A stretch of DNA of 45,725 nt from Candidatus Shapirobacteria bacterium (GCA_023245435.1 JAHFKH010000002.1:1-45725), one strand, 5' to 3'; shown: positions 2,117 to 31,478, counted from the first letter of the stretch. Notes: generated by a model not told the origin, from the letters alone. A program made the numbers and translations.

Positions 2117-2135
2117 CCGTCTGTCTCTCACGTGT

Positions 2136-3353: not shown

Positions 3354-3357
3354 ATAA

Positions 3358-4056: not shown

Positions 4057-4059
4057 AAT

Positions 4060-5271: not shown

Positions 5272-5707
5272 TATGTTCTTTAGTTAATGTTTCTAAAAGA
5301 TTGGCATATATTCTAGTAAGATCCTTGAGGTCTTTTGTTGGAATTTTAGAGAAAATCATTTGTATTTTTTCCATGAGTTTCTTTCTAAGAGTAACAAATT
5401 CCCTCTCGCCGCTTTCAGTGATAATTAGCCTGATAATACGTCTGTCTTCTTGATCATTAATTCTTTCTATAAGTCCTACCTTTACAAGTCTTTCTATAAG
5501 TTGTGTCGCTGAAGATTTTGAAAGTTTCAAAAAGTTAGCCAAACCACTAACAGTTCCACGTGGCTCTTCTTTTAAAAATTGGAGTGCCGTAAGTTGGAGC
5601 ATAGTTGCTTTTTTCTCTTCATGATCTTCCTGTGTCTGTTGAGACATAAGTTTTCCAAACTGCATCATGGTGCTAAATAATTGTTCGAAATCGGCGTCGT
5701 TTTTCAT
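5264..5707 (-). CDS. MarR family transcriptional regulator
   Basis: Winged-HTH signature LTALQFLKEEPRGTVSGLANFLKLSKSSATQLIERLVKVGLIERINDQEDRRII. Heads the efflux operon. Confidence 0.85.
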   Translation of the reverse strand: MKNDADFEQLFSTMMQFGKLMSQQTQEDHEEKKATMLQLTALQFLKEEPRGTVSGLANFLKLSKSSATQLIERLVKVGLIERINDQEDRRIIRLIITESGEREFVTLRKKLMEKIQMIFSKIPTKDLKDLTRIYANLLETLTKEHNE

Positions 5708-5730
5708 AGTTATTAGGTTTAACAGTTAAA

Positions 5731-5749
5731 TAGTTTACCACATAAACTA
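5731..5749. promoter_or_regulatory. inverted repeat TAGTTTA-N5-TAAACTA, candidate MarR operator
   Basis: Perfect 7-bp arms lie 24-42 nt upstream of the MarR start codon at 5707. MarR dimers typically bind such palindromes. Confidence 0.45.
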
Positions 5750-5792
5750 TATATTGCAACAATTTAATCTGTGGTAGAGTTTTTGACCATAC

Positions 5793-5888
5793 TTTGATCG
5801 TCAGCTTATTTGTTGTGTGTGTAAACTTTGTCTTGATTGCTGACACTATTTGGATTCTGTCTTCAGCAGATCCAGTTTTTAAAACGTA
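5793..5888 (-). pseudogene. relic of the 3' end of a large serine recombinase gene
   Basis: It translates to YVLKTGSAEDRIQIVSAIKTKFTHTTNKLTIK. This matches 23 of 32 residues at the C-terminus of the intact recombinase at 19431-20756 (HVLKAGSAEDRIQIMSAIKTKFILHNKQLTIK). No catalytic, recombinase or zinc-ribbon domain is present. Confidence 0.8.
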
Positions 5889-19351: not shown

Positions 19352-19372
19352 AGTTTTGATTTATTCTATTTT

Positions 19373-19390
19373 ACTTACCGCTCGGTAAGT
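19373..19390. promoter_or_regulatory. perfect palindrome ACTTACCG-CT-CGGTAAGT (TetR operator or recombinase att-type core)
   Basis: The 8-bp arms are exact reverse complements around a CT dinucleotide. It lies 22-39 nt upstream of the TetR start (19351) and 41 nt beyond the recombinase stop codon (19431). Confidence 0.5.
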
Positions 19391-19430
19391 TATCGTTAGG
19401 TTATCAAAATGGCAAATGCATGTCAAATGT

Positions 19431-20756
19431 TTAAGTTTTAATTGTCAGTTGCTTGTTGTGCAGTATAAATTTTGTCTTTATTGCCGACATTATTTGAATT
19501 CTGTCCTCAGCTGAGCCAGCTTTTAGAACATGGAGTAAGTATTCTTTTGCCGTATCTCGATCTAGAGGTATTTTTTGAGGGTAATCAAATTGGTTTAGAT
19601 TTCCAGCTAAAAATTCTTGATGAAGCACCTCGCCTCTCAGTGAATGGAATCTTTCGATTTCGTCTTTTAGTTGATTTGTTAACAATTTTTCGTCAAGTTT
19701 TATCTCATCAATATGAGCGAGTAGTTGTTGGATTAATTCCTCTTCGTTGATGTACGGCTCTTCGCAGTCATAATCAACATGCCGACCACAGTGATAATAA
19801 ACATATTTTTTAAATCTTCCGTATTTATATCTCTTATATTTTTCTTCGGCCGTTATCCACCCTCCACAACCTCCACATTTACATAATCCTCTAAACGGAA
19901 ATAGTTTTTTATTCCACTCTTTAAGGGGAACATATAATTGTTTTTGGGCTTTATCAAAGATTTCTCTTGTTATTAATGGTTCATGATTTCCTTTATAGAT
20001 AATTCCTCCGAACTCAAACTCACCGTAGTAATAGGTATTTTTGAGTAATTTATAAACCTTACTTAACGCCAGTGGTTTTCCACTTCTAGTAGTAAATCCA
20101 ATCTTATCCAACCACATTTTCACCACCCTTCCACTTTGTCCCTTTTCAGCTACTCGATTAAATATTTGTTTAATAATTGAGGCACGTTCTTTATCAACTT
20201 CTACGTAGCTGATTCGGTTATAACTCATAACGTTTAGATACCCAAGTGGAGCTATGTTAGGCCTCCATCCTGCCTCACACTTAGCTTTCATACCTCTTTT
20301 GACGTTGATGCCTCTATTATCGTTTTCCAGCTTGGCTTGGGAGCATAAGATCATCAGTAAAAATTTCTCATTTGGATTATTTGAAAATGTTTGAGAAAAA
20401 GTGCGAATTGTTTGTAATTTTCCCTGATCCATTAAATCTACTAGTGTTCCCAAATCTCCGGCATTTCTGCTCAATCTGTCGGGTGCCCAGGTTAATATAG
20501 CATCAAATTCTCCAGATCTGATATCAATTAATAGTTGGTTAAAGACTGGTCGAAGTCCTGATGACTTGGCTGAGTGACTTTCCTGCCGAATTTCCTTAAT
20601 AAATAGGTTCTCTCTTTCAGCCAATGTTTTCATTTCATTGATTTGGGATTCGATCGACATGGCTTGTCGTTCGTCTGATTCCGATGATTTTCTAGCGTAT
20701 AGGCAATACCTAGTTTGCTTTATTTCCTGTATCTTTCCATCTTCTTTCTTCTTCAT
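19431..20756 (-). CDS. large serine recombinase (integrase)
   Basis: Resolvase catalytic domain YCLYARKSSESDERQAMSIESQ and DRLSRN. Recombinase domain. Zinc-ribbon CKCGGCGG...YYHCGRH. C-terminal coiled coil. Confidence 0.92.
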   Translation of the reverse strand: MKKKEDGKIQEIKQTRYCLYARKSSESDERQAMSIESQINEMKTLAERENLFIKEIRQESHSAKSSGLRPVFNQLLIDIRSGEFDAILTWAPDRLSRNAGDLGTLVDLMDQGKLQTIRTFSQTFSNNPNEKFLLMILCSQAKLENDNRGINVKRGMKAKCEAGWRPNIAPLGYLNVMSYNRISYVEVDKERASIIKQIFNRVAEKGQSGRVVKMWLDKIGFTTRSGKPLALSKVYKLLKNTYYYGEFEFGGIIYKGNHEPLITREIFDKAQKQLYVPLKEWNKKLFPFRGLCKCGGCGGWITAEEKYKRYKYGRFKKYVYYHCGRHVDYDCEEPYINEEELIQQLLAHIDEIKLDEKLLTNQLKDEIERFHSLRGEVLHQEFLAGNLNQFDYPQKIPLDRDTAKEYLLHVLKAGSAEDRIQIMSAIKTKFILHNKQLTIKT

Positions 20757-20812
20757 GACACTACTGTACCGCAGGTTTTGTGGAAGTCTAGGAGATAAAT
20801 GTATGTTTTAAA

Positions 20813-21700
20813 CTACAAATCAAGCGTCTCGGGCATTATGGAAGCGCAAGTTAACCCAAACGTCACTGATACTTTTTTTGCTTCTTCTGGAGTTAGTTCC
20901 TTCCAAATTTTTTCTTTTTCGTAAGCGACAATTTCCTCAGTTGTAATTTCTCTTGTTTGAAAACTGGTTTCTTTAACGTTGTAAATGCCTTTAGCATTAA
21001 TTATTTCAATATTACCGATAAAGTGTCTTTCCACGACATCGTAATAGAATTGGAGAGTGTCCACGGTTAAAGTCTCACCCTCAAGGGTCAAAATCTGTTT
21101 TTGATTTTGATTTGGTGGGGTATAGATATAACTGCCTGGTTTCCTGGTCAACTGGTTTTCGTTCCACAAGCGAGCAAAAACTTCATATGCGGTTGCAGTT
21201 TTGCCATTATCGACGACTAATTTGATAACTTTAGGATCTGTCGAAACGGTTCCTTTAAAAGCTGAACTGGTAGAAACACTTAAACTCATTCCTTTAATCA
21301 TTGTGTCTGAAATCATAGAAGAGGCGTAAAGCTTTGTTTTTATGTCCTTATCCTCAGTATCAACTAATGCCAATAAATCAATTCCCAACTCAGAGGCCAT
21401 ATTTACAGCAGTACTCGTATAAGGTGAATTAGAAACAATGGATCCCTTTTTGGCGCCAATATCTTGAAGTTTAGTATTAAATGCTTCGATGACGGGTATA
21501 TCAACAGGTCTTTTATAATCCTTACATTCAAAAGCAATAAAATCATAATTTGATGGATCAACTAGTTTTACATCAACCTGTCGTCTACCTTTAGAAAGTT
21601 TTCCCCGCAAAAAGACGTTTTTGTAAACTTCTGATTCGGGGTTGAAACCCTTGATCATCTCACGGGTTTTATCTTCAAATTTTTTCCATTTTTTTATCAT
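20813..21700 (-). CDS. Mrr-cat type restriction endonuclease-like domain protein with ~170-aa C-terminal domain of unknown function
   Basis: PD-(D/E)xK layout RRQVDVKLV...DFIAFECKDYKRPVDIPVIEAF...AKKGSIVSNSPYTSTAVNMASELGIDLLAL matches the Mrr_cat pattern. I recognise no family for the C-terminal half. Confidence 0.65.
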   Translation of the reverse strand: MIKKWKKFEDKTREMIKGFNPESEVYKNVFLRGKLSKGRRQVDVKLVDPSNYDFIAFECKDYKRPVDIPVIEAFNTKLQDIGAKKGSIVSNSPYTSTAVNMASELGIDLLALVDTEDKDIKTKLYASSMISDTMIKGMSLSVSTSSAFKGTVSTDPKVIKLVVDNGKTATAYEVFARLWNENQLTRKPGSYIYTPPNQNQKQILTLEGETLTVDTLQFYYDVVERHFIGNIEIINAKGIYNVKETSFQTREITTEEIVAYEKEKIWKELTPEEAKKVSVTFGLTCASIMPETLDL

Positions 21701-21751
21701 ATTTCAAATATTTATCAACCGACATGATTATAATCTTATCCCAGGTATATA

Positions 21752-22258
21752 ATGTTAAAATTTGCAATGAAGAGAATTTTAGTTTTGTTATTTTTAGTCG
21801 GAATCATCACGGTTGGAGTTGCTTATTTCAAATCTAATAAAATTCCCGCTGATGATTTCAAAGCCCCAGGTAAAAGTTGGAATTCGCCTAAAAAAGTCGA
21901 AGATTATTTCGTTGAAAAACTGAGATTTACTCAAAGTGATTTAGAAAGACAAAAACAAAGCGAAACGGTCGATTTTCGGCCCGGCAAAGGCTCTACGCTA
22001 GAGGCAATTGTAAGTAACCTTCAATATTATGGATTCATTCGGAGTGAAAAAGCCTTAATGTATGCTTTAGAAAATACCAAAGATACTACTCAAGGAAACC
22101 CGGGAGCACTCTCTGTTGGCAGGAATGGGTCGATTGATACTGTAGCCAGTTACCGGGTTTCGGAAAATATGACTACCTGGGAAATGGCTGATACTTTACT
22201 TAACAAATCACACTATTTTGGTCCGAATGATGAGTACAACTATATGTTTATGCCCTAA
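21752..22258 (+). CDS. membrane-anchored hypothetical protein (weak YceG/MltG N-domain-like segment)
   Basis: N-terminal TM helix ILVLLFLVGIITVGVAYF. The segment GKGSTLEAIVSNLQYYGFIRSEKAL resembles the MltG N-terminal lobe, but the similarity is weak. Confidence 0.55.
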   Translation: MLKFAMKRILVLLFLVGIITVGVAYFKSNKIPADDFKAPGKSWNSPKKVEDYFVEKLRFTQSDLERQKQSETVDFRPGKGSTLEAIVSNLQYYGFIRSEKALMYALENTKDTTQGNPGALSVGRNGSIDTVASYRVSENMTTWEMADTLLNKSHYFGPNDEYNYMFMP

Positions 22259-22263
22259 ACTTC

Positions 22264-22289
22264 AAACCCTCCGATTTCTCAGAGGGTTT
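22264..22289. terminator. bidirectional stem-loop AAACCCTC-N10-GAGGGTTT
   Basis: Perfect 8-bp stem between two convergent genes (ends at 22258 and 22309), flanked by A/T runs. Confidence 0.6.
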
Positions 22290-22308
22290 AATTGAATTCT
22301 CTTTTTAA

Positions 22309-22851
22309 TTATTTTATTAGAGATATTTGTTTCTCGGTTCCAAATAATCCACCTTTGACCAATAGTTTTAAGTCGGTGGCATCATCGGGTAAGTCGAAGA
22401 CTATGTCGCCAGTTACTGATAGTCCAGGCTGTACCTGTTGCAAGAACATGTCTATCTTGCCTTGAGATAATCCTTTGGCTGTTTGACCTTCGATTGATCT
22501 ATCAAACTTTCTACCTTGGGAATCAGTAATTTTTATCATTGAGCTGTCAATTGTGACCGTCTCCTTGCCAACATTCTTGACATTTAGTGTCACCACATAG
22601 AAAGTACCTTGGGCATCCTTTTTGGTATAAGAGCTACCCAATGATTTTGCAGTAGTAACGCCTGTCGCAGTAAATGCCAGATCCTTATCGGTTACTGTGT
22701 CGTTAAGTTTGGCTACGGCATCTTCTTTTTTGGCTCCATTTTGAGTAGTACCACTATTGTTGGTGTTTGAACCCTTACCACCCCCTGAAATTGCACCAAT
22801 TATCATAATAATTACAAAGGCGATTACGCCCCATTTGAGTATTTTTTTCAT
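22309..22851 (-). CDS. DUF4352-like membrane-anchored / secreted beta-sandwich protein
   Basis: ATG at 22851 gives MKKILKWGVIAFVIIMIIGAI (TM anchor), a low-complexity linker, then FYVVTLNVKNVGKETVTIDSS...GDIVFDLP, which is typical of DUF4352. The 41-codon upstream extension in the track is not credible. Confidence 0.7.
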   Translation of the reverse strand: MKKILKWGVIAFVIIMIIGAISGGGKGSNTNNSGTTQNGAKKEDAVAKLNDTVTDKDLAFTATGVTTAKSLGSSYTKKDAQGTFYVVTLNVKNVGKETVTIDSSMIKITDSQGRKFDRSIEGQTAKGLSQGKIDMFLQQVQPGLSVTGDIVFDLPDDATDLKLLVKGGLFGTEKQISLIK

Positions 22852-22907
22852 ATTTTTTGAATAAATATTTCTAACTAATAATTCACGTATATGATGACAC
22901 ATTTTAT

Positions 22908-23186
22908 TTGTTAAGTCTATGTTTACTGCGTGGCAGTATTCTAATACTTGAATATGATGAATCTGTGTTATCAAAAGATGCTTTTACCAAAAAACTAGCT
23001 GAAAAAATCAAGAAAGCCAGAGAAGAATCAGGTATATCTCAGGAAGAACTGGCACACCAAGCGGGACTTTACCGAACTTACATCGGCCATTTGGAAAATG
23101 CCAAATATTCACCAACGGCATATGTAATTTATAAAATCAGCAAAGTCCTGAACATTAAGGCTGACGATTTACTTCCGGGTAATTAA
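22908..23186 (+). CDS. XRE-family HTH transcriptional regulator
   Basis: HTH core ISQEELAHQAGLYRTYIGHLENAKYSPTAYVIYKISKVL. The track start at 22908 is TTG. An in-frame GTG at 22965 would give a more typical 73-aa protein. Its 3' end overlaps the TerL 3' end by 4 nt (convergent). Confidence 0.8.
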   Translation: MLSLCLLRGSILILEYDESVLSKDAFTKKLAEKIKKAREESGISQEELAHQAGLYRTYIGHLENAKYSPTAYVIYKISKVLNIKADDLLPGN

Positions 23187-24691
23187 AATCTTGTATTCAT
23201 CGAAATAGACTCTAGCCTATCAAGGCCGTAGTTTCTGTCGTACAAACTACTTCCACAGCTGATAATCATTATTCCGGGTACGGGTTTATTGTCGATTTCC
23301 AAAATCTTTAGTATTAATAAGGAAAAGGCGTCAGCAAGATCATCATGTTTTTCGATTCCAAATCCGACTAGCTGACTTATTAACTCCTCGGCTCCTTTTC
23401 GAGGAAATAAAATTTTACCCTGTTCAATTAAATGAGTCACTAACGCCAATCTAGAACGCTTGTCCTGTCCATTAACCTTAACGCCCTCACAATGAATATT
23501 TCGGTCTCCTAAATGCTGGATTATTGATTGTTGGTATCCAACGTCTTCGATAAATATTTTTGATTCCTTTCCTAAAATTGACGATAGTTCTTCAATTTTT
23601 GAAACCGTTTGAGGAAAAGTCAGTCTTTGATTGACTGGATTTGGATAAATATATATTTCTAGGTTTTCTTTACCACCATATACTTTGGCAGTAACCATAG
23701 TTGTATAATCTGCTGAATCTTTTTGAGAAATTGCCAAATCAATGCCAGTTCCAATTAGTTTGAAATCCTTTTTATCTCTCTCGATTTCATTGTAGAATTT
23801 TATCCATTCAGGGTGAACTAACCTATCAGCATCAGAAATTATTTTTAGCAAATATTCTCGATACCATGAAGATTCAGACCCAATGCTAGATCTCAACTTA
23901 TTAATTGCTTCCATGTTTGGGAACTTTCCTGGCCACGCGATCGTTTCATGTTTATCGACTAGTGGAACAGATAGAAATTTACCGCTAAGTTTTTTATTAT
24001 CTATCATCGCTTTGAGTCGCATGAGTAAACAATCCTCATGGAGTAAGTTTCCGACGATAATATATTTTGTAAAATTATCACCGACCGGGAACACCTCACC
24101 AGTCAGCCATTGAGAAGTTTTGTCTCGACTCTCCCTAGTTTTAGTATTGTTTAAGTCCTCTACATCGTCGCAGATCACTAAATCTGGTCGATATTGACCG
24201 TGTCTTAAACCACGAATACTCTGTTCCGTTGAGGCAACCGCTATTCGGGCATCGAAGTTAGATAAAACAATAGAGGTCGACCCCCATTCGTCATTAACTT
24301 CCTGAAACGGCCCGATATCCTTTTTAAGTAATTCGTTAGTTTCCAACTCTCTCTTAATATTAGTGAGATGAAGCCTGGCCTGTTGTTGAGTTTGACCTAC
24401 AATTAGTACAAACTTCTTCTGTTGACTTCCAGTAATTGCCCAGATTGGATATGACAAACTCATGATTGTTGATTTACTTGACCCCCTAAAGGCAATGACA
24501 ATTCCCAACTTCAAATTTGTGTCTTCGGTCAGGGAAAACATTTCATTATGAAACGGAGCAAATGGATAGCCGATGTAGTGGCTAAAATAAATAGTAAAAA
24601 ACCAGAAGTGGCTGTTTCTGGCCAACGCCTTGCGGACACTTCTTTTCTTTTTTATCTCGACGAGTTCACTTTCATTTAATGTTTGGATCAT
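23183..24691 (-). CDS. phage terminase large subunit
   Basis: Walker A-like AFRGSSKST and Walker B LVICDDVED. C-terminal RNaseH-like nuclease motifs TGIDLAIS and EKHDDLADAF. ATG at 24691 is preceded by GAAGGAGGG. Confidence 0.85.
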   Translation of the reverse strand: MIQTLNESELVEIKKKRSVRKALARNSHFWFFTIYFSHYIGYPFAPFHNEMFSLTEDTNLKLGIVIAFRGSSKSTIMSLSYPIWAITGSQQKKFVLIVGQTQQQARLHLTNIKRELETNELLKKDIGPFQEVNDEWGSTSIVLSNFDARIAVASTEQSIRGLRHGQYRPDLVICDDVEDLNNTKTRESRDKTSQWLTGEVFPVGDNFTKYIIVGNLLHEDCLLMRLKAMIDNKKLSGKFLSVPLVDKHETIAWPGKFPNMEAINKLRSSIGSESSWYREYLLKIISDADRLVHPEWIKFYNEIERDKKDFKLIGTGIDLAISQKDSADYTTMVTAKVYGGKENLEIYIYPNPVNQRLTFPQTVSKIEELSSILGKESKIFIEDVGYQQSIIQHLGDRNIHCEGVKVNGQDKRSRLALVTHLIEQGKILFPRKGAEELISQLVGFGIEKHDDLADAFSLLILKILEIDNKPVPGIMIISCGSSLYDRNYGLDRLESISMNTRF

Positions 24692-25103
24692 TTTTCCCTC
24701 CTTCAATTGAATTTTCTAATGTGTTTGGTAAGACCGAGGCCAATTTCAGTGCCTTCATTACTAGTGCTTCCTGCTCTGGCGACAATTGCTCATCGTCGTG
24801 TTTTAATTTGGCAGTTACTTCTACTCTCGTGGCATATGATGGATGATGGTTACGTAACCAAAAAATAATGGCAGTCAAATTCTTATCTCTAATTGCACTC
24901 ATAAGTTGAGATTCAGCCATATCATTAACCAAACCATTACCATCAGAAATTGCCTCGTTAACTGCGGCCGCAAACTTTTCATCATCGCTTTTCCAACGAT
25001 AAAAACTGGCTCGACCAATGCCGACTTTTTCACAGGCAACTTGAACCACAGGTGTCTTTTTTAGTTGTTCAATTAACAGTTGTTTTTCATTTTTTGTTTT
25101 CAT
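24672..25103 (-). CDS. terminase small subunit-like HTH protein
   Basis: N-terminal HTH VVQVACEKVGIGRASFYRWKSDDEKF. It lies immediately upstream of TerL and overlaps it. The function call rests mainly on position. Confidence 0.55.
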   Translation of the reverse strand: MKTKNEKQLLIEQLKKTPVVQVACEKVGIGRASFYRWKSDDEKFAAAVNEAISDGNGLVNDMAESQLMSAIRDKNLTAIIFWLRNHHPSYATRVEVTAKLKHDDEQLSPEQEALVMKALKLASVLPNTLENSIEGGKNDPNIK

Positions 25104-25830
25104 ACTTTTTCAGTTTGTTAAATCGATCAATAATTGTTTGGCAGTACTCAGGATCAATTTCCACCATCAAGCATTTTCGTTTTGTTTGCTCACAGGCGAT
25201 AAGAGTAGATCCTGAACCACCAAAAGGGTCGTAAACATAATCACCAATCTGAGTACTATTGAGAATCAAATGTCGCAGAAGTGATATTGGTTTCATGGTT
25301 GGATGTAGTGGGCTTTTGTTGGGTTTGGGAAAAGCCAAAATACTTTTATCCTTACTCTTAAAGAATTGGTGGGTGCCAAACCAGCCATAAGCGATCAACT
25401 CGTGTTGGGGTAGATAATCCATCCGACCAATGACTGAGTGGTTTTTTATCCAGATTAAAAGTTGGCAAAATTTGAAACCGGAAATATCAAGTGCCTTTTT
25501 AAGCGCAAACAACATTTTGTCAGAATTAAAAATGTAGTAACTATTTTTAGCGGATAAATATGGCTTCATAATCTCCAACCATTGTTGAGTAAATAATTGA
25601 TATGATTCATCCGTTTGAACCTGATCGTTGGCGATTACTTTTCTCTTAACTTGTGATTTCGAGAACCCATTTTTACTTTCCACGTACGCTACACCATAAG
25701 GGACATCTGCCAATATAAGTCGAACACTTTTACTTGAAAGTAACTTTTCAACCATTACCTTATCGGTTGAGTCGCCACATAAAAGCAGGTGGTCGCCAAG
25801 GGTAACTATGTCGCCGTTTTTAATTAACAT
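25087..25830 (-). CDS. DNA methyltransferase (N6_N4_Mtase family, beta class)
   Basis: Motif IV variant DVPYG comes early and motif I DPFGGSGSTLIACE comes late. Strong SD AGGAGGTGA before the ATG at 25830. Confidence 0.85.
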   Translation of the reverse strand: MLIKNGDIVTLGDHLLLCGDSTDKVMVEKLLSSKSVRLILADVPYGVAYVESKNGFSKSQVKRKVIANDQVQTDESYQLFTQQWLEIMKPYLSAKNSYYIFNSDKMLFALKKALDISGFKFCQLLIWIKNHSVIGRMDYLPQHELIAYGWFGTHQFFKSKDKSILAFPKPNKSPLHPTMKPISLLRHLILNSTQIGDYVYDPFGGSGSTLIACEQTKRKCLMVEIDPEYCQTIIDRFNKLKKYENKK

Positions 25831-27097
25831 ACTTCACCTCCTTGCCAGTTAATTTTTGATAGCGGGAAATAATTAAATCGCAAAATATCGGTTCGTGTTC
25901 AATCATCAAGCACCTTCGTTTTAATTGCTCGCAGGCGATTAATGTTGAACCTGATCCACCGAATAAATCTAAAACAGCGTCCCCAACACTAGTACAACGC
26001 CTTAGCGCTTTTTCATGAAGGATGGGGCTCTTTTCTGTCGGATGTTCATATTCTCCACCCGATAATCTTTTCACCAGCCAAATGTTTAACAAATCCAAAA
26101 TGTCGTCAATAGTTCGATTGCCTGAGCCAATTTCTTTATTGAGAATCTCATTTAAGTTTTTCGGGTTTTCAGAAATTGTAGGCTTGCCGATAGTTCCATA
26201 AATACAAGCCTCATACGATTTATTAAAAGCAATATTTGGAGTAGGAGAAAAGCCATTTTTAATCCACAAGCAAGTCCGCTTGTTTTCAATTCCTAGTTCT
26301 GTAAATAGTCCTTGAACTAGGCCAATGTGGTTTTCATCATTCCAATAAAATACATGACAATCTGGTTTGGAAATAGTTAACGCATTTTGAATTGTCTTTT
26401 TCAAAAATTCTCTGTACTCAGAGTCAGTTTTGTTGTCATCGGTCTTACCTCCATATTTACTTTTACCTCCGACTCCTTTGTTGTAGTCGAGAGAAATATT
26501 GTAGGGCGGGTCACAGTAGATCATCGATATTGTCTTTTCTCTAGTTAGCTTTTGAACAATCCCAAGGCTTGTACTATCACCGCAAATTAATAGATGAGAA
26601 CCAAGTTGAACAATATCTCCAACTTTTGTTTTAGGGATCTTAATTTTCTCCAACTCTTTTTCGGTATTGAAGTTATCGTCCTCAATATCGAGATTTTCGT
26701 CCCAAATTCTAGACAAATCATTGTTATCAAAACCAATGTCCATCAACATTTCGATATCAAAATTCTTGAGTAGATCAAAATCCCAATCACCAGATACCTT
26801 ATTTAAAGTTAGATTAAGTTTTTTCTCTCTTTCGATATTATCTATGTCAATAAAATTTACTGGCACAGTTTTATACCCCAATTCTTTGGCTATTTTTAGC
26901 CTAAAATGCCCAGCAATCACCACTCCATATCTTGACTTATTTCCATTAGCCAAAATTGGCACCACAAAACCATTTTCCTTGATACTTTTCTTCAAATCAG
27001 AGATAGCTTTCTCGCTCCAGTATCGGGGATTATACTCGGATGGAATTAGGTCATTAATATTTACCTCAACTGTTTGAATCTCTGTTTTATTTTTCAT
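25820..27097 (-). CDS. ParB-like nuclease domain fused to DNA methyltransferase
   Basis: N-terminal ParBc-like LIPSEYNPRYW...VVIAGHFRLKIAKELG. MTase motif IV CDPPYN and motif I DLFGGSGSTLIACE. Overlaps the next MTase gene by 11 nt. Confidence 0.85.
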   Translation of the reverse strand: MKNKTEIQTVEVNINDLIPSEYNPRYWSEKAISDLKKSIKENGFVVPILANGNKSRYGVVIAGHFRLKIAKELGYKTVPVNFIDIDNIEREKKLNLTLNKVSGDWDFDLLKNFDIEMLMDIGFDNNDLSRIWDENLDIEDDNFNTEKELEKIKIPKTKVGDIVQLGSHLLICGDSTSLGIVQKLTREKTISMIYCDPPYNISLDYNKGVGGKSKYGGKTDDNKTDSEYREFLKKTIQNALTISKPDCHVFYWNDENHIGLVQGLFTELGIENKRTCLWIKNGFSPTPNIAFNKSYEACIYGTIGKPTISENPKNLNEILNKEIGSGNRTIDDILDLLNIWLVKRLSGGEYEHPTEKSPILHEKALRRCTSVGDAVLDLFGGSGSTLIACEQLKRRCLMIEHEPIFCDLIISRYQKLTGKEVKYVN

Positions 27098-27205
27098 ATT
27101 AATTTAATTTTATTGGTGGCAAACTAAAAACTTATATATTTTTAGTTGAGGCCAAATTAATATGGGAATAATACCTGTAAATAAAAACCTAAAATACCGT
27201 GTCCT

Positions 27206-27952
27206 TTAAGCTTGAAGGCTACCTAATCTTTTTTTGTGTCGTTTAACTGATTCACTGGCTTCTTTATATGTGTAATCTTCCAAACCAAACTCATTAGTGA
27301 TTATGTCGGAAATTTCAGCCATTTTATGTCCTAAATTTTTGAGTTCGAAAGCTCTTTTATCGATATCTAGCTTTGGGGCAGGTTGAAACTTTTTAGATTT
27401 GTCCGGTAATCTTTTCTGTTCAGCCATTACCATCGGCCACATAAACTTTATATCCTCCAAAGTAGTATCTGCATTTATCTCCAACATTAACGCACCGCGT
27501 TCCCCAACTCCGGAGACTATCGACACATTTCCCGGAATCATCATTGATTCAATGTTGTTAAATATCAAGTATCTTTTAACTGATTCCAGCCAATTTATTG
27601 GCAATCGATATTTTGAGACTAGATTTTTAAGGTCTCGATGAAAATCATTAATTGGGACTCTGTTATTAAATTCTTTGTTAGCCTTTTCCTTACCTAACCA
27701 ATCTTTTAACTTGATTAACATATTTTCTACTTCCGCCTCAGCCTTCCTGTTGCCATCTATAAATTCGTCCGATGCTTCACAAATCCAATTGTGCCATTTT
27801 TGATTTTCTACATCGGATACAAAACCACATTCAGAAATTTTCCACTTTTTTCGTAGTGATTTGATTTCTTCTTGAAATTTTGGATCGGAAATTAGTATTT
27901 TGGCCTTTTGGTGTAGGCGGTTTCGAGTTTTAGTAATGTGACTGTCTTTCAT
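27206..27952 (-). CDS. hypothetical protein, possible C-terminal HTH
   Basis: 248-aa ORF with an ATG start. First gene of the MTase-terminase transcription unit. The C-terminal LGHKMAEISDIITNEFG...SVKRHKKRLG looks HTH-like. I recognise no family. Confidence 0.6.
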   Translation of the reverse strand: MKDSHITKTRNRLHQKAKILISDPKFQEEIKSLRKKWKISECGFVSDVENQKWHNWICEASDEFIDGNRKAEAEVENMLIKLKDWLGKEKANKEFNNRVPINDFHRDLKNLVSKYRLPINWLESVKRYLIFNNIESMMIPGNVSIVSGVGERGALMLEINADTTLEDIKFMWPMVMAEQKRLPDKSKKFQPAPKLDIDKRAFELKNLGHKMAEISDIITNEFGLEDYTYKEASESVKRHKKRLGSLQA

Positions 27953-28105
27953 GTTCTAGCAGGATTATATCGATTCTACGCTATTGTAGGTAACTATGTT
28001 GACAAGTATATAACTAACAACACCTCAAAAATATTTGAACATATCACATAGTAGTTTAATTAAAGAAACAGATAATTTATTGAAATATTTAATAAAAACG
28101 TGACA

Positions 28106-28135
28106 TTAACATTATCATGTCGTATATTGTATAAT
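28106..28135 (+). promoter_or_regulatory. sigma70-like promoter TTAACA-N18-TGTATAAT for the MerR-like gene
   Basis: Extended -10 TGTATAAT at 28128-28135 ends 9 nt before the ATG at 28145, so the transcript would have almost no leader. Confidence 0.45.
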
Positions 28136-28144
28136 TAATTAACT

Positions 28145-28546
28145 ATGTCGTACTTGCGAATATCTCAAGCTGCAAAAATACTTAAAGTAAATACTCGGAC
28201 CCTTATGCGATGGGATAATGAAGGTAAATTTGTCGCCCACAAAGAACCACTGTCAAAAATACGGTTTTATGACGAAGTTGACATACTAAACCACGAGATC
28301 TGGTTCGAACTTAGGAGAAAACACAAAGCACATCTTAAGAAGCTCGACTCAATAAGAAAAGAAGTGGATAAGTTTGTTGTAACTCAGCCATTAGAATTCG
28401 GCGCTAACCCAAAGTTTCATAAACTCGAGGATATGAAAAAGGCATATGACGCACTAAGAGATTGGGAAAAAGAAGAAAGAAATATCACGAGCGAGTATGG
28501 TAAATTACCGAGTGGTTTTAAAGCAAAAGTTGACCCTGAAACTTAG
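28145..28546 (+). CDS. MerR/excisionase-type HTH protein (candidate recombination directionality factor or regulator)
   Basis: N-terminal YLRISQAAKILKVNTRTLMRWDNEGKF is a MerR/HTH_17-type helix-turn-helix. The C-terminus is charged and helical. Confidence 0.75.
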   Translation: MSYLRISQAAKILKVNTRTLMRWDNEGKFVAHKEPLSKIRFYDEVDILNHEIWFELRRKHKAHLKKLDSIRKEVDKFVVTQPLEFGANPKFHKLEDMKKAYDALRDWEKEERNITSEYGKLPSGFKAKVDPET

Positions 28547-28563
28547 ACAGTGAAATCGGAGTT

Positions 28564-29793
28564 CTAGCTTTCTAAACTCTTTTTTTGATTTTTAATCCTC
28601 TCAAGTAGCTCATCATAAAGAACAATTTCGATATTTTTGAACTGGTTTTTTAATATCCTAAAGTCTTCTTTTTTCGAAGAGTTGTCTAATTGGGCTGAAT
28701 TTCCCATAATTACGAATGCCCTTGGGCGTATGACATCTAAATCAATGTCTTTCTCACGTTTAACATCAGCCTTTAAGTCATTTCCTTTTCGCTCTGAGTG
28801 ATAAAGATATTTTTCAGCTTGGACAATAGCTTCTATCGCTTGTTTGTCCCACGAGTAATTTCCTCTACTATCCTTTTTGGCGATTAATAGCTTAGTTTCT
28901 GGCTTTTTGATTTCGAAAAGATCAAGATACCCCTGGGTGTCCACCAAACCAAAATCAACTTTTCTGGTTGTTCCAAGAATTACATTAAGCTGTGCGATTG
29001 AATGAATGTATTTCGAATCTATCAAAAATAGATTCTCTTCTAAAAACTTTCCCCATTCAGATTCTGACGTCTTTTTTGATGACAGTTTTTTGTCAAATCT
29101 ATCGATTACATCACTAAATGTCACCGAGTCAATTTTTAGTTTTGTATTTTTAAATAGGTCGCTTTGGGTAATTTGTAATCGATGGCTCGATTTCATTAGG
29201 GTTGAGACAATGTCCGTTACCCTACCGATATCGTGTTTATCAAAACTATCTACTCCTTGGGCAGACAGTGTCTGAATTGCAAGCTTCGTGTCAGCCGCGG
29301 CGCTATTAATCTTTTTAGCTTTCACCACTTTTGGAAATTGTGTATTAAATAACTTGTTAACAATCTGGGCTCGTCTTTGGCGATGGTAGTAGTCCATTGT
29401 ACCGAGTTCATCGGATAAACCCTCCAGACAGGAATATGTTAGGTGTAAATATTTGTTCTTTCCTTTCTTCGTAATAGAACACGCTCCGGTTTTGGAGATG
29501 TCAATTGATTTTATGTTTTTACTGTTAAAGGTTCGATGAATATAGTCAAATATACGGTTCTTACAATATCCGTTTTTCTTAAATATTTCGGGTAAAGACG
29601 AGAATCCATCAATGGTAAGTTTAGAGAAAAAGTAGTATGCAGACTTAATTGGGTAGTACTCAGTAAAGAGCTTGTTTTTATTGATTTTATAAACAAGTAT
29701 TCTTTCTGGAGATTTCTTATCATCAATAACATATCCCGATATAATTTCGCTTCCTCTAATCTTCTTGACCTCTTCTATTGTTTTTAATGCCAT
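28564..29793 (-). CDS. Shedu-like defence nuclease (DUF4263-type PD-(D/E)xK C-terminal domain)
   Basis: The C-terminal ~170 aa read EWGKFLEENLFLI...RKVDFGLVDTQGYLDLFEIKKPETKLL...AIVQAEKYL...RAFVIMGNS...FRILKNQFKNIEIVLYDELLERI. This matches my recollection of the DUF4263/SduA pattern (D...E-x-K, Q..kY, ivIiG, nieI.tYdeLl). The N-terminal ~230 aa are unassigned. Confidence 0.65.
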   Translation of the reverse strand: MALKTIEEVKKIRGSEIISGYVIDDKKSPERILVYKINKNKLFTEYYPIKSAYYFFSKLTIDGFSSLPEIFKKNGYCKNRIFDYIHRTFNSKNIKSIDISKTGACSITKKGKNKYLHLTYSCLEGLSDELGTMDYYHRQRRAQIVNKLFNTQFPKVVKAKKINSAAADTKLAIQTLSAQGVDSFDKHDIGRVTDIVSTLMKSSHRLQITQSDLFKNTKLKIDSVTFSDVIDRFDKKLSSKKTSESEWGKFLEENLFLIDSKYIHSIAQLNVILGTTRKVDFGLVDTQGYLDLFEIKKPETKLLIAKKDSRGNYSWDKQAIEAIVQAEKYLYHSERKGNDLKADVKREKDIDLDVIRPRAFVIMGNSAQLDNSSKKEDFRILKNQFKNIEIVLYDELLERIKNQKKSLES

Positions 29794-29798
29794 ATATT

Positions 29799-30683
29799 TT
29801 ACTTTTGATTAATAAAGGTATTAAAATCCATAGTTTTCTCCTGTTTATTAACAAACCAAAAGTGATCTTCAGTTATCCCAAAAATGTAACAAAATTCAGC
29901 CCATATTTTGTAAGCAATCATCTCGGGAGTTTGGTTTTCTTTCTTTATAAAGACATCTCTGTCGACCGCGGGGCCCAAAAAGTCTAATCGACCAGCAGAC
30001 GAAATCCAGTTTATATCTAGAACTAGTTCAATTATCTTTCTCTCAGGTTTAAATATGTGGATTTTATAAATTATTCCAGACGGTTTTTTAGCTAGGTGTT
30101 CCGATATTTTATTTGTAAAGTTGACAAAGTTGGATATAAGTTCAGCCGCTGCTAAACCATTAAATTTAAAGGATTCGTTTGGATCTTCGTTTTCAATGCC
30201 GTGTCCATAAAAATCCTCACTAGCGGCGAAGATAATTTGACCATCTCTAAATATCCTAATAATTTTTCTGTCTCCATTGGTGATTTGCAAATACTCACCA
30301 GCAACTGGTTTTGTGCGTCCGAGTGTCCTCAAGTCCCACCCCATGTTTCTAAAACTAACTGGATTCTCGATGTACTTAGTTAATTCCGATTCACCCCCGG
30401 CAAATAAATCCTTAACTTCATTCGGTTGAGATCTAAATGAGCTGGATATGGCAAAAGTAGTGAAGTTTCTGAAATCGGAAAAATTCTTAATGTCGTTTAC
30501 CCTATTTATTTCTTCGGGAGTGAATGTTTGGTGAACTTCATTGGCATTTTTTTCTAAAAGATAGGTCCTTACTGCTTCTCTGATCAACTCACTTCTATTC
30601 CTAATCTCAACTTCGGCTTGCTTATCAACTGCATCTAACAACTCTTCAGATAAAGTGATGTTTATTATTTGGTTTTTCCTCAT
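29799..30683 (-). CDS. ribbon-helix-helix (CopG/Arc/MetJ) domain protein fused to ~245-aa domain of unknown function
   Basis: ATG at 30683 gives MRKNQIINITLSEELLDAVDKQAEVEIRNRSELIREAVRTYLLEK, a clear RHH. I recognise no family for the rest. Its stop is 5 nt before the Shedu-like start. Confidence 0.75.
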   Translation of the reverse strand: MRKNQIINITLSEELLDAVDKQAEVEIRNRSELIREAVRTYLLEKNANEVHQTFTPEEINRVNDIKNFSDFRNFTTFAISSSFRSQPNEVKDLFAGGESELTKYIENPVSFRNMGWDLRTLGRTKPVAGEYLQITNGDRKIIRIFRDGQIIFAASEDFYGHGIENEDPNESFKFNGLAAAELISNFVNFTNKISEHLAKKPSGIIYKIHIFKPERKIIELVLDINWISSAGRLDFLGPAVDRDVFIKKENQTPEMIAYKIWAEFCYIFGITEDHFWFVNKQEKTMDFNTFINQK

Positions 30684-30689
30684 GAACTT

Positions 30690-30718
30690 ATTGTACACAC
30701 ATGTATGTGTAATTTCAA
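30690..30718 (-). promoter_or_regulatory. promoter TTGAAA-N17-TACAAT with embedded palindrome ACACAT-GT-ATGTGT (30697-30710)
   Basis: On the minus strand the sequence reads TTGAAATTACACATACATGTGTGTACAAT, then AAGTTC, then ATG. The -10 ends 6 nt before the start codon, which is leaderless geometry. A 6-2-6 palindrome fills the spacer and is a plausible RHH autoregulatory operator. Confidence 0.5.
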
Positions 30719-30736
30719 GTATTGTGGTTACCGGAT

Positions 30737-30804
30737 TGAGACACTCCTTTTTTATACTGTCTCATTTGTCTCATTTAGCTTCAAATCTTTGATAGAATGA
30801 GACA
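30737..30804. repeat. array of four 7-bp boxes TGAGACA / TGTCTCA
   Basis: TGAGACA at 30737-30743 and 30798-30804. TGTCTCA at 30758-30764 and 30767-30773. Boxes 2 and 4 extend to a perfect 11-bp inverted repeat, ACTGTCTCATT / AATGAGACAGT. Confidence 0.8.
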
Positions 30805-30899
30805 GTGGGTAAGTGGGTGTTATAGGGACAGAAAGGTTCCAGACCCACATGCTCCGCCTACGTTCGCTGAAGCTCACTCCGGCGGACACAGTCCGCTAA
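30805..30899. other. GC-rich non-coding patch with several mutually exclusive stems (unknown structured element)
   Basis: Hand count gives 54 G+C in 95 nt (about 57 percent) against AT-rich flanks. Tandem AGTGGGT at 30804-30810 and 30812-30818. Stems GTGGGT (30813-18)/ACCCAC (30843-48), TCCGCC (30853-58)/GGCGGA (30881-86) and GCGGAC (30882-87)/GTCCGC (30891-96). Confidence 0.5.
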
Positions 30900-31478
30900 T
30901 CAAAACTTTTCTGTCAATATTTTTTCGACTAACTCTCTCGTATACAATTGGTGAATATTTTGATTTTCCCAATCGATTGCGTGTCGATATTCATCATTAG
31001 AATATGCTGTTAAATTTAATTTATTGGCAATATCGTGGACATCATTATTTTCTTTGCCTTCAATTTCAAAAGTAAAATAATCGGGGGTATATTTTGATAA
31101 TTTTATTTCGACTCCCAAATAATTAAATTCCCAACTTTCCCAAAAATATATCATACCCGTATTAAATCGCATACATTCGAGCATATCTAGAGCAGATAAA
31201 AACTCCCCTGTTTTTAATTTAACCTCAACTTCTTTTCTCTCTAAATCCTGAAAGTTGCCAGTTTTGATTGAAATTTTTTCTTTATCATCACTTTTTTTAA
31301 GTCTGATATCGGTACCACTACTGTTTTTCCAGGTTTTAGTTTCTGAATCAAAACCAGGGGAAATATCAATCGATAATCGGTGATAATGATCGACCAATTC
31401 TCCTGTTTCTGATAACAATTTAAATAAATTATCAAATTTTTCTTTACTAATTTTCCCCCTGATTTCTATTTCGGTCAT
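30900..31478 (-). CDS. CYTH-domain protein (triphosphate tunnel metalloenzyme / CyaB-like)
   Basis: N-terminal EIEIRGK, then alternating charged beta-strand motifs DIRLKK, EVEVKL and FEIEG, as in the CYTH fold. Confidence 0.65.
   Translation of the reverse strand: MTEIEIRGKISKEKFDNLFKLLSETGELVDHYHRLSIDISPGFDSETKTWKNSSGTDIRLKKSDDKEKISIKTGNFQDLERKEVEVKLKTGEFLSALDMLECMRFNTGMIYFWESWEFNYLGVEIKLSKYTPDYFTFEIEGKENNDVHDIANKLNLTAYSNDEYRHAIDWENQNIHQLYTRELVEKILTEKF

What the first reader, a model, noticed from the sequence alone, without database searches (positions are those of the whole stretch)
19352..30900. Serine-recombinase island that looks like a gutted prophage: terminase and methylases kept, all virion genes missing
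The segment carries a large serine recombinase at one edge, XRE and MerR/Xis-like regulators, and a co-directional block of unknown protein, ParB-MTase, MTase, TerS-like and TerL with overlapping or near-abutting coding regions. In a phage a portal gene would follow TerL. Here the TerL 3' end collides with a convergent XRE gene (4-nt overlap at 23183-23186). No ORF resembles a portal, capsid, tail or lysis protein. The remaining space holds nuclease-type genes (Mrr-cat-like, Shedu-like). This could be a decaying prophage turned into a defence island. It could also be a satellite-like element that keeps its own terminase to hijack a helper phage's capsids.
Basis: partly seen in the sequence, partly recalled or inferred. 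Interest (0 to 1): 0.6.

Follow-up and report, generated by a model that had tools for sequence, protein, structure and literature searches.

The report
Capsid-less terminase island in CPR bacterium
This 11.4-kb island is one copy of a widespread, apparently undescribed mobile element of ultra-small (Patescibacteria/CPR) bacteria that keeps a working phage DNA-packaging motor, two DNA methylases and a serine integrase but no virus-shell genes, so it is most likely a new kind of phage-hijacking satellite that also carries anti-phage defence genes.

Summary
Window 19431-30900 holds a large serine recombinase (LSR), Mrr-cat nuclease, DUF4352 protein, XRE, TerL, TerS-like protein, MTase, ParB-MTase, a 248-aa HTH protein, MerR/Xis-like protein, Shedu SduA and an RHH protein. 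No virion gene lies in the island or elsewhere in the 96%-complete genome.

It is not a decaying prophage. The same core (HTH protein > ParB-MTase > MTase > TerS > TerL > 0-10 cargo genes > LSR) recurs in about 90 loci across Patescibacteria. TerL is intact in 50 of 51 matches. dN/dS is 0.01-0.04 for TerL. Element TerLs form one clade, sister to uncultured phages that carry MTase-TerS-TerL-portal-capsid.

The family is patchy: 45 of 401 genomes in the phylum and 0 of 22 congeners. It usually sits at the 3' end of a tRNA (mostly Ser or Gln). Its far end carries a pseudo-tRNA 3' end plus a direct repeat, which I found here at 30835-30900.

This copy lacks the tRNA-proximal end and may be stranded.

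Earlier reports of this scan reached the same reading of this family on other genomes.

The parts
19431..20756 (-). Large serine recombinase (integrase), 441 aa, at the tRNA-proximal end of the family's architecture
   Evidence: PF00239 7.8e-21, PF07508, PF13408. phrog_95 integrase 9.5e-65. 94% identical to the LSR of Shapirobacteria locus L042.
19352..19432 (.). Left junction. This is host TetR-upstream DNA, and homology to congeners G401 and G408 stops at or just inside the LSR stop codon. No tRNA or canonical terminal motif is present here.
   Evidence: blastn and alignment. The motif TTTTTCGRTTTAACAGCCTGTAA is absent here.
20813..21700 (-). Cargo: Mrr_cat-type PD-(D/E)xK nuclease with an unassigned C-terminal half
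   Evidence: PF04471 3.2e-8
21752..22258 (+). Cargo: 168-aa membrane-anchored protein of unknown function. It belongs to cluster c31, which is also found in L008, L014, L035 and L042.
   Evidence: No Pfam, PHROG or PADLOC hit. Clustering.
22309..22974 (-). Cargo: DUF4352 membrane or surface protein, possibly for superinfection exclusion
   Evidence: PF11611 1.8e-27; phrog_806 3.7e-33; weak Sie-like phrog_8545. Cluster c8 occurs in 12 loci.
22908..23186 (+). XRE-type HTH regulator, convergent on TerL with a 4-nt overlap. It is a conserved family feature (cluster 4, 32 loci).
   Evidence: PF01381 6.7e-15
23183..24706 (-). Terminase large subunit. ATPase and nuclease motifs are intact: FRGSGKST at 72-80, DLVICDDVED at 175-184, D323, HDD at 454-456.
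   Evidence: phrog_38 7.6e-75; PF17289. Invariant motifs in 28 homologues. dN/dS 0.013-0.04. Monophyletic element clade.
24672..25103 (-). TerS-like HTH protein, 143 aa
   Evidence: phrog_309, phrog_4044 and phrog_4102 TerS. PF13022. AF2 model pLDDT 83, with weak best fold hits to the phBC6A51 phage protein 2ao9 and to Sf6, NV1 and PaP3 TerS.
25087..25830 (-). Orphan N6/N4 DNA methyltransferase
   Evidence: PF01555 6.2e-30; PADLOC MTase_II 1e-56
25820..27097 (-). ParB_N-fused N6/N4 DNA methyltransferase
   Evidence: PF02195 7e-10 + PF01555 3e-27. Present in 81 of 94 loci.
27206..27952 (-). Head gene of the packaging operon: a 248-aa all-alpha protein with a C-terminal HTH. It is not a capsid or portal and is probably a DNA-binding regulator or site-recognition protein.
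   Evidence: AF2 pLDDT 88. No full-length fold match. The C-terminal ~50 aa superpose on the HTH of phage G20c TerS. 12-member alignment.
28145..28546 (+). MerR/HTH_17 (excisionase-like) protein, divergent from the packaging operon. It occupies the slot that holds a LexA-like S24 repressor or a 65-aa Xis-like HTH in other members.
   Evidence: PF00376, PF13411, PF12728; phrog_66. LexA-like c7 in 14 loci.
28564..29793 (-). Cargo: Shedu SduA nuclease
   Evidence: PF14082 1.1e-27; PADLOC SduA 4.3e-35
29799..30698 (-). Cargo: RHH (CopG) protein fused to about 250 aa of unknown function, upstream of SduA
   Evidence: PF01402 6e-10
30736..30851 (+). Conserved distal terminal sequence of the element. 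It holds TGAGACA boxes and then a pseudo-tRNA T-arm/acceptor that begins at 30835 (GGTTCCAGACC..GCTCCGCC, 30835-30858) and runs on into the direct repeat at 30852-30900.
   Evidence: nhmmer finds it in the same orientation and at the same end in 11 other family loci, and as relics in congeners G419 and G422.
30852..30900 (+). 49-nt direct repeat: the last 7 nt of tRNA-Ser(GGA) plus its trailer hairpin. It is 98% identical to C64:10511-10559, next to the genome's real tRNA-Ser(GGA). This is an attR-type junction.
   Evidence: Analogous 36-nt repeat flanking the clean copy L037.
727..5888 (.). Remnant of a second, older element of the same family. It comprises tRNA-Ser(GCT) at 727-812, the terminal motif at 892-914, an efflux operon with MarR at 947-5707, and a relic of the last 32 LSR codons at 5793-5888.
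   Evidence: The relic is shared with congener G401.

Best explanation
Window 19433-30851 is one copy of a phylum-wide family of integrative mobile elements of Patescibacteria.

Shown:
- The family has a fixed core: a regulator slot (LexA-like, MerR or Xis), then an HTH head protein > ParB-MTase > (MTase) > TerS > TerL > variable cargo > large serine recombinase.
- The packaging module derives from tailed phages that continue with portal, MuF, protease and HK97 capsid. The elements never have those genes.
- The core genes are intact and strongly conserved.
- Canonical copies lie at the 3' end of a tRNA (mostly Ser or Gln). The LSR is next to the tRNA. The far end carries a pseudo-tRNA arm plus a direct repeat of the tRNA tip and trailer.
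- Both cargo slots hold mainly defence and exclusion genes. Here these are Shedu, an Mrr-like nuclease and a DUF4352 protein.

Inferred mechanism:
1. A repressor holds the element silent.
2. On induction (DNA damage or helper infection) the LSR, with an Xis-like factor, excises the element.
3. The two methylases protect its DNA.
4. TerS and the head HTH protein recognise the element's own packaging site.
5. Its own TerL pumps the DNA into procapsids made by an unrelated helper phage.

On this reading it is a satellite that brings its own motor and steals only the shell.

This particular copy has the distal junction but has lost the tRNA-proximal end. It may no longer excise.
For: - Architecture. 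It is the same in L014, L017 and about 90 further loci. Of 94 loci with a full-length TerL, 81 have ParB-MTase, 72 have TerS and 65 have an LSR. In 27 loci the LSR directly follows TerL.
- Taxonomic spread. Record titles span Shapiro-, Woese-, Levyi-, Peri-, Saccharimonadia, Parcu-, Dojka- and other groups.
- Patchiness. TerL is found in 45 of 401 genomes and 41 of 320 genera in the phylum, and in 0 of 22 congeners.
- Gene integrity. 50 of 51 TerL matches have no internal stop.
- Selection. For pairs with dS<1, dN/dS is 0.013-0.04 for TerL, 0.012-0.13 for LSR, 0.036-0.09 for ParB-MTase and 0.045-0.12 for TerS.
- Catalytic motifs. TerL motifs are invariant.
- Phylogeny. 98 element TerLs form one clade (support 0.946). 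Its sister is phages L010 and L013, and L010 carries MTase-TerS-TerL-portal-MuF-protease-capsid.
- No structural genes. No homologue of the phage structural proteins occurs among 1828 ORFs of the loci. Cargo tallies show none in the 25 commonest Pfam families. Only 1 of 45 TerL-positive genomes has a PF04860 portal.
- Head protein. The head-gene model is all-alpha with an HTH, so it is not a capsid.
- Integration. Ends with tRNA and direct repeats are documented.
- Regulation. A LexA-like repressor occurs in 14 members.
- Mosaicism typical of mobile elements. The window LSR is 94% identical to that of L042, while TerL is only 60% identical.
Against: - No helper phage is identified.
- No excised circle, empty site or encapsidated DNA was seen.
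- No replication module was found in the 25 commonest Pfam families of either cargo slot. It is therefore unclear how a concatemeric packaging substrate would arise.
- 44 of 45 carrier genomes lack a resident PF04860 portal, so a helper would have to be an external phage.
- TerL is far more conserved (median pairwise identity 53% across the phylum) than phage TerLs usually are. That is odd for a protein that must dock on diverse helpers' portals.
- The window copy lacks the tRNA-side att end.
Confidence: 0.5

Rival explanations
1. Interference device. The island keeps TerS and TerL not to travel but to sabotage infecting phages. It would do this by cutting or mis-packaging their DNA, or by occupying their procapsids. 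On this view it is a mobile defence island whose terminase is itself a defence gene.
For: - Both cargo slots are full of defence systems: Shedu here, and CBASS-like SMODS/SAVED, type I, II and IIG R-M, PifA and PDC-S28 elsewhere.
- The window copy seems unable to excise, yet all its genes are intact.
- TerL is unusually conserved.
- Tandem TerL paralogues occur in 11 loci.
Against: - PADLOC has no model that matches TerL, TerS or the head protein.
- ParB-MTase and an orphan MTase are typical self-protection for DNA that enters new hosts.
- The LSR, tRNA targeting, mosaicism and patchy spread show frequent horizontal movement, which needs a vehicle.
- Interference and transfer are not exclusive. 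PICIs do both (my own knowledge).
Confidence: 0.2
2. Capsid-independent or chromosome-mobilising role. TerS and TerL would process element DNA for another route, such as uptake by the competence machinery or vesicles. Alternatively they would start in-situ packaging that carries adjacent chromosomal DNA into foreign capsids, as a lateral-transduction-like device.
For: - No replication module and no portal occur anywhere in carriers.
- terS-terL point towards the cargo, the LSR and the tRNA-side flank.
- The truncated window copy is still under selection, judging by its intact genes.
Against: - No known terminase works without a portal-bearing procapsid (my own knowledge).
- Nothing in the data points to an alternative partner.
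- The element has well-defined ends with direct repeats, as expected for excision of a unit.
Confidence: 0.15
3. Gutted prophage. This would be a one-off remnant of a temperate phage that lost its virion genes and is decaying into a defence island. It is the first reader's first reading.
For: - The module is clearly phage-derived.
- This copy lacks one att end, and relics of LSR genes and distal ends litter the genus.
Against: - The same six-gene core occurs in about 90 loci of very different CPR classes.
- dN/dS is 0.01-0.1.
- 50 of 51 TerL genes are intact.
- The element clade is monophyletic and separated from phage TerLs by a long branch.
Confidence: 0.05
4. Complete but unrecognised virus. 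One or more of the unknown proteins would form a novel shell.
For: Several island proteins have no family assignment.
Against: - Minimal members have only the head HTH protein, two MTases, TerS, TerL and the LSR (L021, L005, L059-L063).
- The only unknown among these is a confident all-alpha HTH protein.
- TerL-type motors are known only with portal-bearing HK97-type capsids (my own knowledge).
Confidence: 0.05

Closest known systems
Capsid-forming PICIs (cf-PICIs)
   Same: Integrated island of 10-15 kb. It carries its own TerS and TerL, a repressor and integrase, and is presumed to depend on a helper.
   Different: By definition cf-PICIs also encode capsid, portal, protease and head-tail connectors, and they steal only tails. 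Here none of these is present. The integrase is a serine rather than a tyrosine recombinase. The host phylum is Patescibacteria.
Classical PICIs / SaPIs
   Same: Size, integration at a fixed site, a repressor-controlled operon, TerS-based redirection of packaging, and defence or accessory cargo.
   Different: SaPIs use the helper's TerL and carry a primase/replication module and capsid-size genes. This family has its own TerL, two MTases and no detectable replication module.
PLEs of Vibrio cholerae
   Same: Phage satellite integrated by a large serine recombinase. It has strong anti-phage activity and no capsid genes.
   Different: To my knowledge PLEs have no terminase, replicate with RepA and are restricted to Vibrio and phage ICP1. 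There is no sequence relationship to this family.
Uncultured tailed phages L010 and L013 (IMG/VR), with MTase-TerS-TerL-portal-MuF-protease-HK97 capsid
   Same: Sister clade of the element TerLs (41-46% identity), with the same MTase-TerS-TerL order and low G+C.
   Different: They continue with a complete head module, which the elements replace by cargo and an LSR.
Defective prophages such as the B. subtilis skin element (from memory, not tested)
   Same: Chromosomal, phage-derived, carry terminase genes, and are excised by a serine recombinase.
   Different: Those are single-lineage relics with decaying genes. This is a conserved, selected, horizontally spreading family.

Membership tests
Terminase large subunit (TerL) | Profile match over both the ATPase and the RNaseH-like nuclease domains | tested here: met
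   phrog_38 E=7.6e-75 over residues 18-473. PF17289 over 321-466.
Terminase large subunit (TerL) | Walker A and B motifs and nuclease acidic residues conserved | tested here: met
   FRGSGKST, DLVICDDVED, D323 and H454-D455-D456 are invariant in 28 homologues.
Terminase large subunit (TerL) | Works with a portal-bearing procapsid encoded by the same genome | tested here: not met
   No portal or capsid in the island, the genome, or 44 of 45 carrier genomes.
Terminase small subunit (TerS) | Small HTH protein encoded directly upstream of terL, with profile or fold similarity to TerS | tested here: inconclusive
   The position is met. PHROG TerS hits range from 1.5e-8 to 4e-4. Fold hits to 2ao9, Sf6, NV1 and PaP3 TerS all have E>0.1. 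No PDB sequence hit.
Large serine recombinase | Resolvase catalytic domain + recombinase domain + zinc ribbon | tested here: met
   PF00239, PF07508 and PF13408.
Large serine recombinase | Flanking attL and attR sites | tested here: inconclusive
   The distal junction is present, with a 49-nt repeat of the tRNA-Ser(GGA) tip and trailer. The tRNA-side junction is missing in this copy. Both are present in L037.
PICI / SaPI satellites | Replication module (primase or Rep plus ori) | tested here: not met
   No replication family appears among the 25 commonest Pfam families of 77 + 116 cargo proteins, nor in the island.
PICI / SaPI satellites | Helper-phage-dependent induction and packaging | not testable with these tools
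No culture is available.
cf-PICI | Own capsid, portal and head-tail connector genes | tested here: not met
Defective (decaying) prophage | Relaxed selection, pseudogenes and lineage-specific gene content | tested here: not met
   dN/dS 0.01-0.1. Intact TerL in 50 of 51 matches. Conserved architecture.
Shedu (cargo) | SduA DUF4263 nuclease domain | tested here: met
   PF14082 1.1e-27; PADLOC SduA 4.3e-35.

The most novel reading that the evidence does not exclude
The terminase motor of these islands works without any capsid of its own lineage, and perhaps without any capsid at all. It would be a portal-independent DNA-processing or export machine, or a device that launches packaging of host chromosome from the island. 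That would be a new route of gene transfer in the reduced genomes of CPR bacteria. The extreme conservation of TerL across the phylum, the tandem TerL paralogues, the lack of a replication module and the near absence of portals in carrier genomes would then all be explained.
Probability: 0.12. Interest if true: 0.9.

Novelty: new variant of a known kind. Interest (0 to 1): 0.7.

Why it matters
Patescibacteria make up a large share of bacterial diversity, yet their phages and mobile elements are almost unknown. A 2025 preprint states that it is unknown whether satellites exist for viruses of CPR bacteria (10.1101/2025.02.15.638363).

If this reading holds, several things follow:
- A family present in about one genome in nine would be the first CPR satellites.
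- They would represent a new strategy: bring the motor, steal the shell.
- They would be a main vehicle for defence systems (Shedu, CBASS-like, R-M), metal resistance and efflux genes in these tiny genomes.
- Public virus catalogues already file these islands as viruses (13 IMG/VR hits), so viral diversity and host links for CPR are partly mis-scored.
- The serine integrases with defined tRNA sites could become genetic tools for organisms that currently have none.

Tried and rejected
- Empty site in congeners. The flanks (TetR side and w192/NUDIX side) exist in G401, G408, G419 and G422, but the genus is heavily rearranged. No genome joins the two flanks. In G408 the 13 kb between them are ordinary sugar and cell-wall genes.
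- The GC-rich patch as a known RNA. Rfam gave no hit at gathering threshold or at E<=10. It is explained instead as a pseudo-tRNA arm plus a tRNA trailer.
- Direct terminal repeats on the small IMG/VR contigs, as a sign of circular or packaged forms. None were found.
- Hidden capsid in the 248-aa head protein. Rejected by its all-alpha model.
- Promoter and terminator scan of the island. Counts were not above shuffles.
- Literature. No paper combines Patescibacteria, terminase and serine recombinase, and none describes CPR satellites. The mBio 2026 paper on patescibacterial phages describes complete phages, not these islands.
- Close TerL in cultured phages. The best match is 27.5% identity, to Haemophilus phage SuMu. 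In the PDB only T7 gp19 matches, at E=9e-4.


Full report
**1. What is in the window**

The window is the whole 45.7-kb contig C71 of an 800-kb, 71-contig, 96%-complete genome with 35% G+C. A 99%-identical TerL fragment in 'Candidatus Shapirobacteria UBA2283' places the organism in Shapirobacteria, a lineage of Patescibacteria/CPR.

- LSR, 19431-20756(-)
- Mrr_cat nuclease, 20813-21700(-)
- a 168-aa membrane protein, 21752-22258(+)
- DUF4352 protein, 22309-22974(-)
- XRE, 22908-23186(+), overlapping the TerL stop by 4 nt
- TerL, 23183-24706(-), phrog_38 E=7.6e-75
- TerS-like protein, 24672-25103(-)
- MTase, 25087-25830(-)
- ParB-MTase, 25820-27097(-)
- a 248-aa unknown, 27206-27952(-)
- MerR/HTH_17, 28145-28546(+)
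- Shedu SduA, 28564-29793(-)
- an RHH-fused 299-aa protein, 29799-30698(-)

No ORF matches a virion or lysis family. The whole genome has no PF04860 portal or PF05065 capsid match. It also has no tblastn match to the structural proteins of the nearest phages.

**2. It is a family, not a wreck**

TerL has more than 3000 relatives in the protein collection. The best 120 are at least 60% identical, and many lie on CPR contigs of 100-900 kb.

Two neighbourhoods show the same order. One is a 906-kb scaffold and the other a Roizmanbacteria contig. The order is: ~248-aa unknown, ParB-MTase, (MTase), 143-aa TerS, TerL, convergent XRE, variable genes, LSR.

A scan of one genome per species found at least 495 relatives. 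The best 80 are 50-82% identical. Their record titles span Shapiro-, Levyi-, Woese-, Berkel-, Doudna-, Kuenen-, Peri-, Peregrini-, Falkow-, Moran-, Nomura-, Zambryskii- and Dojkabacteria, Saccharimonadia and Paceibacterota.

I called and clustered 1828 ORFs of all loci. Of 94 loci with a full-length TerL:
- 81 have the ParB-MTase upstream.
- 72 have TerS.
- 65 have an LSR downstream on the same strand.
- In 27 the LSR follows TerL directly. In the rest, 1-10 cargo genes (up to 6.9 kb) lie between.

Minimal members therefore have only six genes. No locus has a portal after TerL.

phmmer with the portal, MuF, protease and capsid of the related phages hit nothing in the element loci.

**3. Origin of the module**

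Among 13 IMG/VR hits, most are these islands.
- L010 (33% G+C, TerL 46% identical) is a real phage fragment: MTase, TerS, TerL, Phage_portal, Mu-F, prohead protease, HK97 capsid.
- L011 (66% G+C, 39% identical) has MTase, TerL and a portal+MuF fusion.

In a FastTree phylogeny rooted on L011/L012, the 98 element TerLs form one clade (support 0.946). Its sister is L010+L013 (support 0.992).

No GenBank phage has a TerL more than 27.5% identical. The only PDB sequence match is T7 gp19, at E=9e-4.

**4. Selection**

TerL catalytic motifs are invariant in 28 homologues. In two genome surveys, 50 of 51 TerL matches have no internal stop.

Nei-Gojobori dN/dS for pairs with unsaturated dS (<1):

| Gene | dN/dS |
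|---|---|
| TerL | 0.013-0.040 |
| LSR | 0.012-0.13 |
| ParB-MTase | 0.036-0.09 |
| TerS | 0.045-0.12 |

A decaying prophage is excluded.

**5. Distribution**

TerL (E<=1e-30) occurs in 45 of 401 evenly sampled Patescibacteria genomes, in 41 of 320 genera. It occurs in none of 22 other genomes of the window's own genus and in 2 of 18 genomes of other genera of the order.

Some genomes hold two copies: L060+L092, L061+L070, L023+L038.

The window's LSR is 94% identical to that of Shapirobacteria locus L042, and its ParB-MTase is 80% identical. Its TerL is only 60% identical to L042's, whereas it is 82% identical to L021's. The modules therefore recombine.

In the same 401 genomes a PF04860 portal occurs in only 12. 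Only one of those (G016, on a different contig) is among the 45 TerL carriers.

**6. Ends and integration**

ARAGORN finds a tRNA downstream of the LSR, with its 3' end facing the LSR, in 28 of 65 loci. These are 14 Ser, 9 Gln, 2 Glu, 2 Asp and 1 Pro, at distances up to 5.5 kb. Another 13 loci end less than 1 kb after the LSR.

The GC-rich patch at the window's island edge is the other end of the element.
- nhmmer with 30736-30900 finds it at the far side of 11 other family loci (L005, L014, L017, L031, L032, L033, L036, L037, L039, L043, L045). It is in the same orientation and lies 3.5-8 kb upstream of the head gene.
- Its conserved part ends in a pseudo T-arm and acceptor strand, GGTTCCAGACC..GCTCCGCC (30835-30858). 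This aligns with the 3' end of a tRNA.
- The next 49 nt (30852-30900) are 98% identical to the tip plus trailer hairpin of the genome's real tRNA-Ser(GGA) on contig C64.

L037 shows the complete layout on one contig. It reads tRNA-Ser(TGA) + 36-nt repeat, LSR ... TerL ... head gene, distal arm + the same 36-nt repeat (24 nt exact). The span is 9.5 kb.

I read this as attL = tRNA arm + element arm, and attR = element arm + trailer. The crossover lies at the tRNA's 3' tip. This step is inferred.

**7. This copy is incomplete at the tRNA side**

Left of the LSR stop codon come 79 nt and a TetR gene, with no tRNA.
- Homology with congener G401, which has no LSR there, stops at 19432.
- Congener G408 keeps 65 nt of the LSR 3' end next to its TetR and nothing else.
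- A terminal motif next to the tRNA is shared by L014, L037 and L042 (TTTTTCGRTTTAACAGCCTGTAA). It occurs once in this genome, at 892-914 beside tRNA-Ser(GCT).
- That site also has an efflux operon and a relic of the last 32 LSR codons at 5793-5888, shared with G401. It is the remnant of an older element.
- G419 and G422 carry relics of the distal arm. In G419 it is followed by the same GIY-YIG gene that follows tRNA-Ser(GGA) on C64.

The genus has therefore gained and lost such elements repeatedly. The intact-looking copy in the window may no longer excise. No genome joining both flanks was found.

**8. The unknown genes and the cargo**

The 248-aa head protein gives a confident model (pLDDT 88). 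It is all-alpha with one small hairpin. It has no full-length match in the PDB or BFVD. Its last ~50 residues superpose on the HTH of phage G20c TerS. It is a DNA-binding protein, not a shell protein.

Other members have different proteins in this slot, some with a weak OmpR-type winged helix.

The TerS-like model (pLDDT 83) has weak best matches to the phBC6A51 phage protein 2ao9 and to Sf6, NV1 and PaP3 TerS.

Fourteen members have a LexA-type repressor (LexA_DNA_bind + Peptidase_S24) divergent from the head gene. Others have a MerR or a 65-aa Xis-like HTH there, as in the window.

Cargo between TerL and the LSR (77 proteins) includes OB-fold and DUF4352 surface proteins, an Ltp lipoprotein, SNase, type IIG R-M, PifA/KAP, PDC-S28, HKD+Snf2, a P-type ATPase, MFS and MarR.

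Cargo upstream of the head gene (116 proteins) includes CBASS-like SMODS, SAVED and patatin, type I and II R-M, and TerB_N.

No virion or replication family appears among the 25 commonest Pfam families of either set.

Eleven loci have two tandem full-length TerL paralogues, 54-58% identical to each other. They arose at least twice.

**9. Reading**

What is shown is a conserved, selected, horizontally moving, tRNA-targeting island with a phage packaging module and defence cargo but no shell genes.

The function of the module is inferred. The most economical reading is a satellite that uses its own TerS and TerL to fill a helper phage's procapsids. The methylases would protect the transferred DNA.

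Points against this reading:
- No helper is identified.
- No replication module is present.
- Almost no resident portal exists in carriers.
- TerL is unusually conserved.

The rivals are an interference-only role, a capsid-independent or chromosome-mobilising role, and, now unlikely, prophage decay or a cryptic virus.

**10. Prior knowledge**

Full-text searches found no description of such islands. A 2025 preprint states that satellites of CPR viruses are unknown. The mBio 2026 paper on patescibacterial phages describes complete phages, not these islands.

Earlier follow-up reports of this scan described the same family on other genomes as a 'capsid-less terminase island', probably a satellite. 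My analysis was made independently on this window and agrees with them. It adds the following:
- selection estimates
- the structure of both ends
- TerL monophyly
- the portal co-occurrence test
- the LexA-type repressor
- the tandem TerLs
- the finding that this copy lacks its tRNA-side end

Noticed in passing
window 727-5888: Remnant of a second element of the same family. It comprises tRNA-Ser(GCT), the conserved terminal motif at 892-914, a MarR-HlyD-ABC-MacB-MFS efflux operon, and a relic of the last 32 codons of an LSR at 5793-5888 (72% identical to the intact LSR). The relic is shared with congener G401.
   Followed up: partly
L004, L006, L007, L052, L055, L067, L068, L071, L079, L081, L083: Two tandem full-length TerL paralogues (54-58% identical to each other) sit in one element, and they arose at least twice. 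In several loci a crude regex found no C-terminal HDD-type acidic motif in the upstream copy. I know of no phage with two TerL genes.
   Followed up: partly
L049:5500-6147 and 13 other loci (cluster c7): A LexA-type repressor (LexA_DNA_bind + Peptidase_S24) is encoded divergently from the packaging operon. This suggests SOS-type induction of many family members.
   Followed up: partly
G000 contig C64:10434-10854: The genome's real tRNA-Ser(GGA) is followed by the same 49-nt trailer as at the island edge, then by a GIY-YIG gene. This looks like an unoccupied attB. Congener G419 has the element's distal arm joined to the same trailer and GIY-YIG gene, which looks like a relic attR.
   Followed up: partly
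window 18046-19409 and G000 contig C11:6741-8084: The TetR-GT2 gene pair next to the island is duplicated in the genome at 71% DNA identity. TetR homologues occur in only 2 of 22 congeners, so this pair is itself accessory.
   Followed up: no
window 30737-30806: Four TGAGACA/TGTCTCA boxes are present, including a perfect 11-bp inverted repeat separated by 29 bp. They are conserved in the distal arm of other family members. The size and symmetry would fit a recombinase or repressor binding site.
   Followed up: partly
L017:19003-20373 and L005, L046, L051, L052, L062: Diversity-generating-retroelement-like cargo (reverse transcriptase plus bAvd) is present inside or next to several family members.
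   Followed up: no
L022, L024, L026, L031-L033 and others (record titles): Many TPA MAG records that carry the element are titled 'uncultured Gammaproteobacteria', 'Bdellovibrionales' or 'Pseudomonadales'. Their low G+C and CPR-type gene content suggest these are mislabelled Patescibacteria.
   Followed up: no
window 28564-30718: The RHH-fused 299-aa protein is encoded 5 nt upstream of SduA. It may be a two-gene Shedu variant sitting in the element's distal cargo slot, which holds CBASS-like or R-M systems in other members.
   Followed up: no
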